From UHGV virus genome UHGV-1998140: a stretch of DNA of 50,335 bases; one strand, given 5' to 3'. Position 1 is the stretch's first letter. Each line of letters begins with the position of its first letter. The position numbers were made by a program, and so were the translations under genes. Below, piece after piece: positions 43,651 to 47,318 of the stretch. Origin of the DNA: a virus. Below the pieces are notes generated by a model. That model was not told where the DNA came from. It saw nothing but the letters and a program-made list of their open reading frames with translations, and did not search any database.

Positions 43651-44223
43651 GTGAACCATTTAATGATCGACCTCGAAACGATGGGCAATAAGCCTGCTGC
43701 ACCAATCGTTGCGATCGGCGCTGTATTCTTCGCCCCGAAAAGCAGTGAGTTGGGCGCAGAGTTCTATATGGCCGTTAACCTCGCCAGTGCTATGGATCAG
43801 GGTGCGACACCTGACGGTGATACTATCCTGTGGTGGCTCAAACAATCATCAGAGGCCCGAGCAGCTATTTGTACTGACGATACCAGAAGCATTACATTTG
43901 CTCTCTCCGAGTTGAGTTCATTTATCAGCCGTCACTCTGACAACCCACGATATCTGAAAGTCTGGGGTAATGGTTCTAACTTTGACAATGTGATTTTACG
44001 CTCAGCCTACGACCGCGCCGGCCAAACCTGCCCGTGGCAATTCTGGAACGACTGCGACGTGCGCACCATGGTGTTGCTCGGCAAACAACTTGGTTTCGAC
44101 CCTAAGCGCAAGATGCCATTTGATGGTGTAGCCCACAATGCACTGGCCGATGCTCGCCACCAGGCAAAATACGTGTCCGCAATCTGGCAAAAGCTAATTC
44201 CAGCCACCAGCACCGAAGAATAA
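43651..44223 (+). CDS. 3'-5' exonuclease (DnaQ-like DEDD fold)
   Basis: 190 aa; N-terminal MIDLETMG acidic motif and C-terminal H-x4-D (AHNALADA) typical of DEDDh exonucleases. Confidence 0.6.
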   Translation: MNHLMIDLETMGNKPAAPIVAIGAVFFAPKSSELGAEFYMAVNLASAMDQGATPDGDTILWWLKQSSEARAAICTDDTRSITFALSELSSFISRHSDNPRYLKVWGNGSNFDNVILRSAYDRAGQTCPWQFWNDCDVRTMVLLGKQLGFDPKRKMPFDGVAHNALADARHQAKYVSAIWQKLIPATSTEE

Positions 44224-44477: not shown

Positions 44478-45659
44478 ATGGCAGCAAGGCCAAGAAAAAG
44501 GGAATACCGCCATCTACCTGATTATCTAATATTTGATAAAGATCGCGGCGTTTATAAATTCACCTTAATTACAGGGAAGAAAAAGAACATTGGGAAAGAT
44601 CGGGCTATAGCCATCGCTATTGCGCGCGAATACAACCTCAGAATGCGGCAGGCAAATGCTCCGTCAGTTGAATTGCTTATCCGTGATTCTGGCGGCGTGT
44701 CGGGTGAAGCTAAACCTTTTGCCGAGCATGTTGATCACATCATGGCGCGTGCGATTGAAAATGAACGTCCGTCGCAAAATACGCTTGATGACTGGAACAA
44801 CGACGCACTAAGGGTGAAGGAATTCTTTAGCAACATACCAGCTTGCGATATTGAGCTGGAGCATGTGAACGCCTACATAAAGCATTACCACTCAGATTCA
44901 TCAGCGAACGTACAAAACCGGAAGGTCAGCTTCCTTAAAAAATTGTTCTCGTATGCGGTCGATGAATCATTGATGTTTGATAATCCTGCTACACGCAAAA
45001 AAATGCGAAGAACCGAAGAGAAGAAACGCCAGCGTCTTTCACTCGATAACTTTAAAGCCATTCGTCGGGCCGCCGAACCCTGGTTACGCACCGCGATGGA
45101 TTTAGCATTACAGACGACGCACGCTCGCCTTGAAGTGTCTAGGATTCGGTATTCAATTCGTGAACCTAAGAACGGTATTTGTGGTTGTGTATGGCTCGAA
45201 CAGCCAGAAGATGGCATATATGGAACGCTTTACATCCATCGTCAAAAGGTACAAAAGAAGGAAGCATCGCACGTTGCGATTCCAATTGGGGATGAGCTAA
45301 AGCGCATAATTGATGAAAGTAGGGATAACGTAGCTAGTCCGTTTGTTGTTCATCGGATTCCGGAGCGACAGGTTAAACGCAGTAAAGAAGTTTCACACCC
45401 AACTCAAGTTGCGCCTGACTATCTTAGTCGCTCGTTCTCCTCGTTACGCGATGAGCTAGGGCTTTGTGATCATCTTGCGATGGACGAACGCCCTACATTT
45501 CACGAGATCAGAGCCCTTGCAGCACATTTGTTTAATAGCCAAGGAATCGATCCTCAAGGCAGAATGGCTCACAGTGATGCAAAATCAACAAAGATTTATA
45601 CTCAAAACCACATTGATTGGATCGTCGTTCCACACGGGGAAATTAAATACAATGCATAA
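44478..45659 (+). CDS. int: Tyrosine integrase
   Basis: 393 aa, Arg-rich N-terminal arm-binding region, C-terminal catalytic region; 1.6 kb from the tRNA-derived att core. Confidence 0.9.
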   Translation: MAARPRKREYRHLPDYLIFDKDRGVYKFTLITGKKKNIGKDRAIAIAIAREYNLRMRQANAPSVELLIRDSGGVSGEAKPFAEHVDHIMARAIENERPSQNTLDDWNNDALRVKEFFSNIPACDIELEHVNAYIKHYHSDSSANVQNRKVSFLKKLFSYAVDESLMFDNPATRKKMRRTEEKKRQRLSLDNFKAIRRAAEPWLRTAMDLALQTTHARLEVSRIRYSIREPKNGICGCVWLEQPEDGIYGTLYIHRQKVQKKEASHVAIPIGDELKRIIDESRDNVASPFVVHRIPERQVKRSKEVSHPTQVAPDYLSRSFSSLRDELGLCDHLAMDERPTFHEIRALAAHLFNSQGIDPQGRMAHSDAKSTKIYTQNHIDWIVVPHGEIKYNA

Positions 45660-45693
45660 TGAAATTGGCCTCAAATGAGGCCAATTAGTGGGA

Positions 45694-46077
45694 TTAGGAA
45701 GCTTCTGACTTGGTCATATCAGCGCAACGCTGGATTAATTTCTCTGCAGTCTTAATTGCGGTGCTTGATTGGGTTGATGTAACAGTGTCGTTAAGTCTGT
45801 AATCACAAACTATTCTCTGATCCTTAAGCGATTGTAGAGCATACCCCAAACCAATTAAGTCTCTTTTATCAAAAGGTTCGTTGCCCTTCCAAGCATCGTT
45901 AACGAGATAGTCAATGAGGCCCTGGTGACTTTCCTTCGGCCCCATGGTCAAACACGGAAGTACGTGGTGATAGGCGCCATAATACGCACGAGCGACAGCA
46001 TTTCTGTAACCAATTTCGTCGTTACGTTTTTCACAATCTTTTGCGAAAGCGATAATCTCAGAACTATTAACTGGCAC
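45694..46077 (-). CDS. Hypothetical protein B of cargo operon (127 aa)
   Basis: GTG at 46077 with GGAGG 9 nt upstream, overlapping stop of gene A by 11 nt; contains RAYYGAYHH segment; no confident family. Confidence 0.5.
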   Translation of the reverse strand: MPVNSSEIIAFAKDCEKRNDEIGYRNAVARAYYGAYHHVLPCLTMGPKESHQGLIDYLVNDAWKGNEPFDKRDLIGLGYALQSLKDQRIVCDYRLNDTVTSTQSSTAIKTAEKLIQRCADMTKSEAS

Positions 46078-46882
46078 GCGCAGGTTCCTCCGAATGTCCT
46101 TCAAACCAGACGCTGAAAGGTTTTCCAATCAAACTTTCATTTTCTGCAAGAGAAAATGCTATATCTAGGTTCATATCAGAGAGAACATCAGAATCTTCAG
46201 TATTAACTGTCATGACATACGATGACGTCCGCTCTTCAGGGACAGAGCAGAAAGACATAGCAACAGGACCAACCTTATGGTAGCTCATGATATCCACAAT
46301 GCGATTTGCAATATCCTGGAATTCTTCATCAGTAATTCCAGTTGTACTTTTGAAAGTCGTGGATTGGGCCAGTGCTGTGGCTGCGAGGTGCTTAACCAAT
46401 TCAGCCTCCTTTTCATCTACCATACTTATCAACCTCTCAGCATAGTAGAGCGCTTTGTCAATACGCCCCAAGAACAAGTTGGCTTCCCATGCATGGGACA
46501 ACATTGTAGGCGAGTTATAACGTTCAACTAATCGATTTACCGCTTGTTCAACTTCACGAAAACTGCCGTAATCGTTAAGGTAAACTACATAATTTTGAGC
46601 AATGAGTAGGTTGTTATGCTTCAATGCTTCTTCAAAGAATGCAACAGCCGAATCCTTACGCCCAAAAGCACCATTAGCCAACGCTTTGAGATAGTCCTCA
46701 GATGCACTGTCGCGCAACTTTTCTATATCTCTTAGATATCGAAAATATTGCATTTCGGATATCGTACCCCGAGCCGCAAGTATATCGATTAATTCGCTGC
46801 TGATTTCGTTCGCTTTTAGCGCCAATTTTGGCATTAATTTTTCCTTAAGAAGCGTTAGCTCAGTTGCTTTTTCATGTAGCAA
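46067..46882 (-). CDS. Hypothetical protein A of cargo operon (helical, TPR-like)
   Basis: 271 aa, alpha-helical repeat-like composition; first gene of a two-gene operon between int and att core; AT-rich promoter region upstream. Confidence 0.5.
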   Translation of the reverse strand: MLHEKATELTLLKEKLMPKLALKANEISSELIDILAARGTISEMQYFRYLRDIEKLRDSASEDYLKALANGAFGRKDSAVAFFEEALKHNNLLIAQNYVVYLNDYGSFREVEQAVNRLVERYNSPTMLSHAWEANLFLGRIDKALYYAERLISMVDEKEAELVKHLAATALAQSTTFKSTTGITDEEFQDIANRIVDIMSYHKVGPVAMSFCSVPEERTSSYVMTVNTEDSDVLSDMNLDIAFSLAENESLIGKPFSVWFEGHSEEPARAS

Positions 46883-47272
46883 TCTTAGTAAGTCTGTGAA
46901 GAGTACACGAGGATGCTCTCGATTTCCAACGACCTGTATAACCCTAAAGGAATGTCAACTCTTGACAATTGAATAAATGCCACTTTCATCAACAAACGAA
47001 GATATCCACAGACACGCCTAATGCACAACTCTGTGGATAACTATTACTTACCCACAGAAATGTACTTTTCGCTCGGTTTGCAAAAAGTGCTATAGATGGG
47101 ACCTATTAATAACAGCAAGCAAAAACAAACTGTAAAAATTGTGGGGTAAAACTGACGTTAAGTATTTGATGTATATAGTGTGGATTTTGCATAAAGCGCA
47201 CTGTTTGTATATACAGTCGAATACACTCCAGAAGCAGTATTTACAAGGGCTCCAGCACCTTTACAGCAGTGA

Positions 47273-47318
47273 CATGGGGTGTCGGGGGTCGGAGGTTCAA
47301 ATCCTCTCGTGCCGACCA
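47273..47318 (+). other. Attachment-site core: 3' 46 nt of tRNA-Pro(GGG) (partial tRNA copy at prophage-host junction)
   Basis: CATGGGGTGTCGGGGGTCGGAGGTTCAAATCCTCTCGTGCCGACCA has the T-arm GGTTCAAATCC and acceptor 3' strand plus CCA; no matching 5' acceptor strand upstream. Confidence 0.7.

What the first reader, a model, noticed from the sequence alone, without database searches (positions are those of the whole stretch)
45694..46882. Two-gene cargo operon of unknown function between integrase and att core
A 271-aa helical/TPR-like protein and a 127-aa protein with an RAYYGAYHH segment form an overlapping minus-strand operon between int and the tRNA-Pro att core, with their own AT-rich promoter region. 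This slot is a classic hotspot for anti-phage defence, abortive-infection or toxin modules. Neither protein matches a family I can name, so it is the best candidate here for an undescribed system.
Basis: partly seen in the sequence, partly recalled or inferred. Interest (0 to 1): 0.8.

Follow-up and report, generated by a model that had tools for sequence, protein, structure and literature searches.

The report
Prophage TPR protein plus HEPN pair
Between the integrase and the tRNA-Pro attachment site of this Klebsiella prophage sits a conserved two-gene cassette, an acidic TPR-repeat protein followed by a small HEPN-fold (RNase-type) protein, that moves between many prophages and is most likely an untested toxin-like or abortive-infection anti-phage module built from familiar parts.

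Summary
Two overlapping minus-strand genes lie between int (44478-45659) and a 46-nt tRNA-Pro 3' fragment (47273-47318). Homologues and RBS positions give gene A = 46067-46834 (255 aa, not 271) and gene B = 45694-46077 (127 aa).

"No nameable family" is wrong. B is a HEPN domain of the AF0298-type HEPN-T clade (PF05168). It lacks the His of Rx4-6H but keeps an invariant R88-x3-D92-Y93 and the alternative His51. A is a TPR domain (aa 1-165) plus a very acidic C-terminal α/β domain with no detectable relative.

The pair is strictly conserved: 79 of 79 evaluable viral contigs, with B down to about 28% identity. It is under purifying selection (dN/dS 0.11-0.14), and A diverges faster than B. It sits at many different prophage positions, at a chromosomal site in Gilliamella, and next to Bunzi in Aeromonas.

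It matches no PADLOC model, and I found no paper describing it. The best reading is a HEPN-effector, TPR-sensor/inhibitor module of the TA or abortive-infection type. It is a new variant of a known kind, and its function is untested. Interest is moderate (0.45).

The parts
46067..46834 (-). Gene A, 255 aa. N-terminal TPR domain (aa 1-165, nt 46340-46834). Linker helix plus an acidic C-terminal α/β domain (aa 166-255, nt 46070-46339; helix 169-185, β190-198, β203-210, α215-230, β240-246).
45694..46077 (-). Gene B, 127 aa. HEPN domain of the AF0298-type HEPN-T clade, with invariant R30, Y32, Y33, H51, L81, R88, D92 and Y93.
   Evidence: Pfam HEPN PF05168 in 23 of 32 homologues. Profile hit to PDB 9xbd, 'HEPN domain-containing protein', at E 7e-5. 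AF2 pLDDT 91.7. Foldseek top hit 2hsb (AF_0298 HEPN), TM 0.71. Invariant residues. phrog_5176 at 1e-28.
46086..46091 (-). GGAGGA ribosome-binding site for gene B, inside the 3' end of gene A. The 11-nt overlap (46067-46077) suggests translational coupling.
   Evidence: Sequence read directly. The same overlap is annotated in E. coli. Overlaps or abutting stop/start are seen in most of the 79 viral loci.
46842..46846 (-). AAGGA ribosome-binding site, 7 nt upstream of the ATG of gene A.
   Evidence: Sequence read directly. Conserved in the four-way alignment.
45663..45686 (.). Perfect 11-bp stem hairpin between the convergent stops of int and gene B. Likely a bidirectional terminator.
   Evidence: Inverted repeat I5. 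Not reported by the terminator scan, because no T-run qualifies.
46953..46958 (-). -35-like TTGACA upstream of gene A, conserved in three of four diverged copies. No convincing -10 element.
   Evidence: Alignment. The consensus promoter scan is negative on this strand.
46863..46886 (-). Conserved AAGATTGC...GCAAC short inverted repeat in the leader of gene A. Possible operator or RNA hairpin.
   Evidence: Invariant or nearly invariant columns. Function not tested.
47000..47070 (.). CTGTGGATAA-N6-TTATCCACAG palindrome plus a third half-site, in the attP arm or upstream region. It is kept as a palindrome with different sequence in Pseudocitrobacter faecalis.
   Evidence: Inverted repeat I3. Compensatory change seen.
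47273..47318 (+). 46-nt 3' fragment of tRNA-Pro. This is the att core and prophage end.
   Evidence: Sequence. No intact tRNA. Matches annotated tRNA-Pro in E. coli.
44478..45659 (+). Tyrosine integrase, convergent with the pair. Context, not part of the module.
   Evidence: Pfam hits. The same int-pair arrangement is seen in six other assemblies.

Best explanation
A self-contained two-gene accessory cassette ('moron') carried by temperate phages.

Gene B encodes a small HEPN-fold protein of the AF0298-type HEPN-T clade. It is most likely a dimeric RNase that uses the alternative active site proposed for this clade, R88 of the R-x3-D-Y motif plus His51 from the insert between helices 2 and 3.

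Gene A is translated just upstream and is probably translationally coupled. It encodes a TPR domain joined to a strongly acidic, family-specific C-terminal domain.

Proposed mechanism. In the lysogen, A holds B inactive, in an antitoxin-like manner, perhaps through the acidic C-terminal domain. The TPR domain binds a protein of a superinfecting phage. That binding releases or activates B, which cuts cellular RNA and aborts the infection.

Shown here: the gene models, both folds, the conserved polar residues, strict pair conservation, purifying selection, mobility, and the absence of the pair from PADLOC-DB v2.

Inferred: A-B binding, RNase activity, toxicity, the phage trigger, and the defence phenotype.
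For: B is a HEPN domain.
- PF05168 matches 23 of 32 homologues.
- The family profile hits the PDB HEPN protein 9xbd at E 7e-5.
- Foldseek top hits are all HEPN: 2hsb (TM 0.71), 1ufb, 2q00, sacsin, AbiV and HepT.
- R30, Y32, Y33, H51, R88, D92 and Y93 are invariant down to 22-30% identity and in 9xbd.
- This matches the AF0298/AbiV variant described by Anantharaman et al. [quoted passage not shown]
- AbiV itself is reported as an rRNA-degrading RNase (bioRxiv 10.1101/2024.05.05.592566).

A is a TPR domain plus a novel domain. It is acidic, with net charge -15 and a C-terminal domain at pI 4.1.

The pair behaves as one unit.
- The genes overlap by 11 nt.
- An A homologue lies directly upstream of B in 79 of 79 evaluable IMG/VR loci.
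- The same holds in all 9 genome loci and in Klebsiella and Vibrio phages.
- Across 61 distinct pairs, A and B identities correlate (r = 0.92), and B is the more conserved partner in 99% of comparisons.
- dN/dS is 0.11-0.14.

Mobility. The pair is found in the int-att slot, in siphovirus and myovirus tail or baseplate operons, next to Bro-N antirepressor genes, next to a DUF968/HNH-nuclease gene in L055 (a NinG-like region, from my own knowledge), at a P2-like locus, beside umuDC and an invertase, and at a chromosomal frr-MFS site in Gilliamella.

Defence neighbours.
- Bunzi BnzA/BnzB in Aeromonas (BnzB E 2.5e-67).
- DUF2971/PDC-S31 in the equivalent slot of an E. coli prophage.
- Islands with HEF_HK/receiver or MComp1/CTD1 genes.

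There is precedent for prophage-borne HEPN abortive-infection proteins triggered by phage structural proteins: HepS (PMC13043305) and Tha (PMC11087260).
Against: There are no experimental data.
- Neither protein, nor distant homologues of A, hits PADLOC-DB v2. Only the Vibrio phage B homologue gives a weak HEPN_IX hit.
- The canonical Rx4-6H His is absent. RNase activity of AF0298-type HEPN-T proteins is a prediction, not a demonstrated fact.
- B is near-neutral (pI 6.3), not basic as many RNA-binding toxins are.
- A has no DNA-binding domain, so typical type II TA autoregulation is not evident.
- One assembly of Enterobacter sp. SA187 has gene A split by a frameshift while B is intact (L012 versus L013). 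If this is real, B is not lethal without full-length A. It may be a sequencing error.
- A-B binding could not be modelled here.
- The C-terminal domain of A could not be searched separately.
Confidence: 0.5

Rival explanations
1. A plain addiction-type toxin-antitoxin module. B is a toxin and A is a labile protein antitoxin. The pair stabilises the prophage or island by killing cells that lose it, with no phage sensing.
For: The order is antitoxin-like gene first, then a small HEPN gene, with overlapping coding regions. A is acidic. In E. coli the pair persists intact next to a decayed recombinase remnant and occurs in 56 of 5426 complete genomes. In Gilliamella it stands alone in the chromosome.
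Against: A 255-aa TPR protein is unlike known HEPN antitoxins, which are MNT nucleotidyltransferases, RnlB, or the abiV2 RNA. A diverges faster than B in 99% of comparisons, which fits a diversifying sensor better than a simple neutraliser. The cassette recurs as a moron inside late operons, where stabilisation has little meaning. Addiction and defence roles do not exclude each other.
Confidence: 0.2
2. A phage-serving function other than superinfection defence. Examples are a non-catalytic HEPN protein acting as an RNA- or protein-binding adaptor, with the TPR partner regulating lysogeny, excision or late gene expression, or blocking a host defence system.
For: The canonical catalytic His is missing. 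Anantharaman et al. note that some HEPN domains act non-catalytically. Many copies lie inside tail or baseplate operons. The Yersinia phage YP3 homologue sits among structural genes without a full-length A gene. The window copy is adjacent to int and xis.
Against: The invariant polar set (R30, H51, R88, D92, Y93) is what an active site would look like. The cassette is absent from most relatives of each phage type and its position is not fixed, so it is not a core function. The Gilliamella chromosomal copies have no phage around them.
Confidence: 0.15
3. Chance ORFs or decayed genes with no function.
For: None beyond the lack of annotation ('hypothetical protein' in RefSeq).
Against: dN/dS is 0.11-0.14. 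Both AF2 models are confident, at pLDDT 91-92. There are hundreds of homologous pairs.
Confidence: 0.01

Closest known systems
AF0298-type HEPN-T proteins (Pfam PF05168; PDB 2hsb, 1ufb, 9xbd), usually paired with MNT nucleotidyltransferases
   Same: Same fold and size (TM 0.71 to 2hsb). Same sequence signature: RAYY helix, His in the helix 2-3 insert, and R-x3-D-Y replacing Rx4-6H.
   Different: The partner is not an MNT nucleotidyltransferase. It is a TPR protein with a novel acidic C-terminal domain. The pair is phage-borne in Gammaproteobacteria rather than archaeal or thermophile chromosomal.
HepT/MntA type VII toxin-antitoxin (HEPN/MNT)
   Same: A two-gene operon with a small HEPN protein as the presumed RNase toxin, and a Tyr next to the catalytic motif (PMC7641770).
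   Different: HepT belongs to the DUF86/HEPN-M clade and has a canonical Rx4H motif. It is neutralised by AMPylation from MntA. Gene A shows no nucleotidyltransferase domain or motif.
AbiV (Lactococcus abortive infection)
   Same: A HEPN protein noted in 2013 to share the alternative-His arrangement with AF0298-type proteins. It is reported as an RNase acting in phage defence and appears among the fold hits.
   Different: AbiV is about 200 aa. Its reported antitoxin is an RNA (abiV2), not a protein. It gives weak structural scores here (TM about 0.4). No PADLOC hit was returned for B; I did not check whether that library holds an AbiV model.
HepS (Gifsy-1) and Tha (S. aureus prophages)
   Same: Prophage-encoded HEPN abortive-infection effectors, activated by a structural protein of the incoming phage (PMC13043305; PMC11087260).
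   Different: Both are single proteins that sense and act on their own, and HepS has a canonical Rx4-6H motif. Here a separate TPR protein would do the sensing, and the HEPN motif is non-canonical.
HEPN families linked to TPR or Sel1 repeats in Anantharaman et al. 2013 (LA2681 fused to or in operon with TPR; AbiU2 with a Sel1 gene; C6orf70/DUF4209 fused to TPR)
   Same: The same logic of an α-solenoid repeat partner next to a HEPN domain.
   Different: Those are other HEPN clades with canonical motifs. The table row for PF05168 HEPN-T lists no TPR association. The C-terminal domain of gene A has no counterpart.

Membership tests
HEPN superfamily | Four-helix up-and-down bundle HEPN fold | tested here: met
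   AF2 model at pLDDT 91.7. Foldseek top hits are HEPN structures: 2hsb (TM 0.71), 1ufb, 2q00, 3o10, 9bj7 and 7bxo.
HEPN superfamily | Rx4-6H catalytic motif at the end of helix 3 | tested here: not met
   The motif is R88-I-V-C-D92-Y93. Tyr occupies the His position. R, D and Y are invariant in all homologues.
HEPN-T clade, AF0298 type (Pfam PF05168) | Sequence match to the PF05168 profile | tested here: inconclusive
   The window protein itself gives no hit at E <= 1. Among homologues, 23 of 32 match, with a best E of 2e-5. The family profile hits the PDB HEPN protein 9xbd at E 7e-5. JGI labels some homologues 'UPF0332 family'.
HEPN-T clade, AF0298 type (Pfam PF05168) | [quoted passage not shown] | tested here: met
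   R88 and H51 are invariant. H51 lies at the start of the short helix 51-60, between helix 21-42 and helix 71-93.
HEPN-T clade, AF0298 type (Pfam PF05168) | RNase activity and dimeric active site | not testable with these tools
   No multimer modelling or biochemistry was available.
HEPN/MNT (HepT-MntA) type VII toxin-antitoxin | Adjacent MNT nucleotidyltransferase that AMPylates the HEPN toxin | tested here: not met
   Gene A has only TPR hits in Pfam across 78 family members. Its fold is TPR plus an αββαβ domain. No nucleotidyltransferase match was found in PDB.
AbiV system | AbiV-family HEPN protein of about 200 aa with an abiV2 RNA antitoxin | tested here: not met
   B is 127 aa and gives no PADLOC hit. 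Structural similarity to AbiV is weak, at TM about 0.4. The partner is a conserved protein-coding gene. No Rfam match reaches its family's gathering score in the region; four weak hits look like chance.
Type II toxin-antitoxin module | Small bicistronic operon with coupled genes | tested here: met
   11-nt overlap, with the upstream gene first.
Type II toxin-antitoxin module | Toxicity of the toxin, neutralised by direct binding of the antitoxin | not testable with these tools
   One assembly has a frameshifted A with B intact (L012). This is ambiguous evidence.
Type II toxin-antitoxin module | Antitoxin DNA-binding domain for autoregulation | tested here: not met
   No HTH, RHH or AbrB domain is seen in A. 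A conserved short inverted repeat exists in the leader, but its binder is unknown.
Catalogued anti-phage defence systems (PADLOC-DB v2.0.0) | Match to any component model | tested here: not met
   No hit at E <= 1 for A or B. No hit for distant A homologues. Only a weak HEPN_IX hit (1e-4) for the Vibrio phage B homologue.
TPR repeat proteins | Tandem helix-turn-helix repeats that match TPR profiles | tested here: met

The most novel reading that the evidence does not exclude
The pair is a previously undescribed two-component abortive-infection system. A stand-alone TPR sensor with a new acidic inhibitory domain directly gates an AF0298-type HEPN RNase that cuts RNA with a non-canonical Arg/His(/Tyr) site. 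This would be the first functional and mechanistic assignment for this large, so far only predicted, HEPN-T subclade outside MNT pairs. It would also be an NTPase-free example of TPR-based phage-protein sensing.
Probability: 0.4. Interest if true: 0.6.

Novelty: new variant of a known kind. Interest (0 to 1): 0.45.

Why it matters
If it is a defence module, it adds a compact system of about 1.15 kb to the catalogue. The system is widespread in Enterobacterales, Aeromonas, Vibrio and Gilliamella prophages: 226 IMG/VR contigs carry it, as do about 1% of complete E. coli genomes.

It offers a simple setting to test two open points. The first is whether AF0298-type HEPN domains without the Rx4-6H histidine are real nucleases. 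The second is how a plain TPR protein, without a STAND NTPase, can couple phage recognition to effector release.

It also documents the int-att slot of CPS-53-like prophages at tRNA-Pro as a swap site for candidate defence cargo. In one E. coli prophage that slot holds DUF2971/PDC-S31, and here it holds this pair.

If it is only an addiction module, it is a routine finding.

Tried and rejected
Searches that found nothing or little:
- Megablast of the region against 50,697 phage records found nothing.
- tblastn of A against the same records found nothing. Only profile methods link the phage partners.
- phmmer of B alone against PDB gave only noise.
- NCBIfam had no hit.
- Profiles of A against PDB and Pfam found only TPR, and nothing for the C-terminal domain.
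- The afdb50 library was not available.
- The Rfam scan of the locus gave only chance-level hits.
- The promoter and terminator scan found no minus-strand promoter.

Literature:
- The DefensePredictor paper (PMC13092281) does not list the E. coli accessions WP_001145023 or WP_001136067 in the supplement text that is held. Several of those files were cut when stored.
- Its HEPN pair DS-28 is a different HEPN protein with a canonical RNSVAH motif, a different partner and the reverse gene order; I judged this by eye from the sequences, without an alignment.
- Text searches for the accessions, the PHROG ids and the PDB ids 9xbd/9xbc found nothing relevant.
- Brenes & Laub 2025 (Cell Host Microbe) is not in the library. 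I could not check whether the pair was tested there.

Ideas rejected or downgraded:
- An MNT-like nucleotidyltransferase in the C-terminal domain of A. The topology is αββαβ, I see no G[GS] or DxD nucleotidyltransferase motifs on reading the aligned sequences, and neither Pfam nor PDB shows an NTase match.
- The truncated A (P0080) and the split A (L012) as proof against an antitoxin role. The P. faecalis type strain has a full-length A (L017). L012 and L013 are near-identical Enterobacter genomes of almost the same size, possibly the same strain (L013 corresponds to the Enterobacter sp. SA187 protein), so a sequencing error cannot be excluded.
Full report
**Observation.** The two minus-strand ORFs are present as described. 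Reading the sequence and comparing homologues refines the models.

- Gene B starts at GTG 46077, with GGAGGA 8 nt upstream, and ends at 45694 (127 aa). Homologues are 127-128 aa. The E. coli RefSeq copy is annotated at the same length. Enterobacter wuhouensis has ATG at that codon.
- Gene A most likely starts at ATG 46834, with AAGGA upstream, giving 255 aa. All homologues are 255-257 aa. The 16 extra codons of the 271-aa TTG model carry an in-frame stop in E. coli.
- The genes overlap by 11 nt.
- They lie between a tyrosine integrase (44478-45659) and a 46-nt tRNA-Pro 3' fragment (47273-47318). That fragment is followed by the tRNA's own terminator hairpin. ARAGORN finds no complete tRNA, but the stretch matches annotated tRNA-Pro in every E. 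coli genome.
- Beyond it lies a host T6SS TssM/IcmF gene at 65-70% GC.
- The exact proteins are recorded as Klebsiella/Enterobacteriaceae 'hypothetical protein'.
- Both genes are under purifying selection, with dN/dS 0.138 and 0.112 against the 92%-identical E. coli copy.
- The upstream 400 bp are AT-rich. No consensus sigma-70 promoter is found on the coding strand. Only a conserved -35-like TTGACA is seen.
- A perfect 11-bp hairpin (45663-45686) separates the convergent int and B genes.

**Gene B is a HEPN domain.** The window protein alone hits nothing in Pfam, NCBIfam or PADLOC. However:

- 23 of 32 homologues match PF05168 HEPN.
- The family profile finds the PDB 'HEPN domain-containing protein' 9xbd/9xbc (E 7e-5).
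- The AF2 model (pLDDT 91.7) has HEPN structures as its best Foldseek matches: AF_0298 2hsb (TM 0.71), TT1696, a Sulfolobus PaREP-type protein, sacsin HEPN, AbiV and HepT.
- The canonical Rx4-6H motif is not there. The sequence is R88-IVC-D92-Y93.
- Anantharaman et al. 2013 describe exactly this variant for AF0298-like HEPN-T proteins and AbiV. The Arg is kept, the His is lost, and a second conserved His sits in the insert between helices 2 and 3, forming a possible alternative active site (PMC3710099).
- In this family H51 sits in that insert. It is invariant, together with R30, Y32, Y33, R88, D92 and Y93, across homologues down to 22-30% identity and in 9xbd.
- Such strict retention of polar residues argues for a working active or ligand site. 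RNase activity of this subclade remains a prediction.

**Gene A is a TPR domain plus an unknown domain.**

- The AF2 model (pLDDT 91.4) shows TPR-like helix pairs over residues 3-165, then a long helix, then a small β-β-α-β unit (190-246).
- A profile of 78 diverse family members matches consensus TPR proteins in PDB at E 7.7e-17 over positions 18-146.
- TPR_2 matches 27 of 78 members.
- Nothing matches the C-terminal domain in Pfam or PDB.
- The protein is very acidic, with pI 4.8 and net charge -15. The C-terminal domain has pI 4.1. B is near-neutral.
- The A family is small and uniform. About 130 clusters at 50% identity were found among 1.84 billion representatives, essentially all 245-275 aa and colinear. 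No fusions of the C-terminal domain to other domains were seen.

**The pair is one unit.**

- An A homologue lies immediately upstream of every B homologue in six assemblies carrying the identical proteins, in all nine species-representative genome loci, and in 79 of 79 evaluable IMG/VR loci. The 80th locus is cut at the contig end.
- In Klebsiella phage ST405-OXA48phi1.3 and a P2-like Vibrio phage, the upstream ORFs are A homologues only by profile comparison (hhalign 97% and 95%). Chronis gp57 is weak by hhalign but is picked up by the broader profile.
- Over 61 distinct pairs, A and B pairwise identities correlate (r = 0.92), and B is more conserved than A in 99.4% of comparisons, with means of 39% and 25%.
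- The one clear exception is Yersinia phage YP3, where a 100-aa gene precedes the B homologue.

**Mobility and neighbours.** The cassette occupies unrelated positions:

- the int-att slot of CPS-53-like prophages at tRNA-Pro (window);
- beside a decayed recombinase in 54 E. coli genomes at about 92% identity;
- after the tail tube and chaperone genes of siphoviruses;
- between the baseplate hub and the gpV/J genes of myoviruses;
- next to Bro-N antirepressor genes;
- between the late-control B and replication A genes of a P2-like phage;
- beside umuDC and an invertase;
- in Gilliamella, in the chromosome between frr and an MFS transporter, with no phage genes nearby.

In Aeromonas veronii it is adjacent to Bunzi (BnzB E 2.5e-67). 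In E. coli O25b:H4 the int-att slot of the neighbouring prophage holds a DUF2971 gene that matches the PADLOC candidate PDC-S31. Two other loci adjoin islands with HEF_HK/receiver or MComp1/CTD1 genes. This is the behaviour of a moron-type accessory cassette, and it is weak guilt-by-association for defence.

**Mechanism.** The best-supported reading (confidence about 0.5) is a HEPN-effector module of the toxin-antitoxin or abortive-infection type.

- A and B are made together.
- A keeps B inactive, possibly through its acidic C-terminal domain.
- The faster-evolving TPR part binds a protein of an incoming phage.
- B is then freed to cut RNA.

Prophage-borne HEPN Abi proteins triggered by tail proteins are known: HepS (PMC13043305) and Tha (PMC11087260). 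AbiV, which was noted in 2013 to share the alternative-His arrangement, is reported as an rRNA-degrading RNase.

Steps shown here are the folds, the conserved residues, coupling, co-inheritance, selection and mobility. Steps inferred are binding, catalysis, toxicity, the trigger and the phenotype.

The rivals are a plain addiction TA (0.2), a phage-serving regulatory or counter-defence role with a non-catalytic HEPN (0.15), and non-function (refuted).

One cautionary point concerns L012 and L013, two near-identical Enterobacter genomes that may be the same strain. L012 has A frameshifted while B is intact. This is either a sequencing error or a sign that B is tolerated without full-length A.

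**Comparison with known systems.**

- By membership, B belongs to the HEPN superfamily, in the AF0298-type HEPN-T clade. The fold and the alternative-His signature are met, the canonical motif is not, and the Pfam match holds only at family level.
- The system is not a HepT/MntA module, because there is no nucleotidyltransferase.
- It is not AbiV, given the size and the RNA antitoxin of that system.
- It is not any PADLOC v2 system.
- HEPN-TPR or HEPN-Sel1 associations were listed in 2013 for other HEPN clades (LA2681, AbiU2, DUF4209), but not for PF05168.
- I found no paper on this pair. One relevant study, Brenes & Laub 2025, is not held.

**Verdict.** The finding is real and coherent. It is still functionally uncharacterised as a system. 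I rate it a new variant of a known kind, with interest 0.45.

Noticed in passing
window 47000-47070: A palindrome CTGTGGATAA-N6-TTATCCACAG plus a third half-site lies upstream of gene A, in the attP arm. Pseudocitrobacter faecalis keeps a palindrome there with different bases (TTGTTAATAA...TTATTAACAA). This looks like a co-evolving protein-binding site or a hairpin.
   Followed up: partly
window 46863-46886: The leader of gene A holds a short inverted repeat, AAGATTGC...GCAAC. Its arms are invariant across four copies that otherwise differ widely, and its loop varies. It is a possible operator or RNA structure.
   Followed up: no
window 47170-47220: Two direct repeats, TGTATATAGTGTGGA and TGTATATACAGTCGA, lie 36 nt apart next to the att core. 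They are candidate arm-type integrase binding sites.
   Followed up: no
L001 (E. coli O25b:H4, NZ_CP015085.1 1081787-1095109): Two elements sit in tandem at tRNA-Pro. One is a CPS-53-like prophage whose int-att slot carries a DUF2971 gene matching the PADLOC candidate PDC-S31. It is followed by a frameshifted recombinase remnant that still carries the intact TPR-HEPN pair. The slot behaves as a cargo-exchange site.
   Followed up: partly
L022 2558-4530 (Aeromonas veronii CECT 4257): A Bunzi system (BnzA/BnzB) lies divergently next to a distant copy of the pair. A GH108 lysozyme gene follows on the other side.
   Followed up: partly
L012 5242-6004 versus L013 5243-6004 (near-identical Enterobacter genomes of almost the same size; L013 is Enterobacter sp. 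SA187): The gene A homologue is split by a frameshift in one assembly and intact in the other, and the HEPN gene is identical in both. This is either a sequencing error or evidence that the HEPN protein is tolerated without its partner.
   Followed up: partly
L006 and L011 10612-13344, compared with window 43651-44223: Next to xis, some otherwise identical prophages replace the Rv2179c-like 3'-5' exoribonuclease gene with a dATP/dGTP pyrophosphohydrolase, DndB-like and ParB-like trio. This is a second variable cargo site in the early-left operon.
   Followed up: no
window 47678-50323: The host gene next to the att site is a T6SS TssM/IcmF at 65-70% GC. Other assemblies with the identical prophage end have an AI-2E transporter, ecotin and mqo there instead. 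The same prophage end therefore abuts different host contexts at tRNA-Pro.
   Followed up: partly
L005 3198-3866 (Yersinia phage YP3); L058, L096, L101, L102: In Mu/P2-like myovirus prophages the pair is embedded in the baseplate operon, between the hub and the gpV/J genes. In YP3, only a 100-aa gene precedes the HEPN homologue.
   Followed up: partly
PDB 9xbd / 9xbc: Two deposited structures of a 125-131-aa HEPN protein differ in the aligned stretch only at the Tyr of the R-x3-D-Y motif (Y versus F); the chains also differ in length. Someone may be testing that residue. No paper was found.
   Followed up: partly
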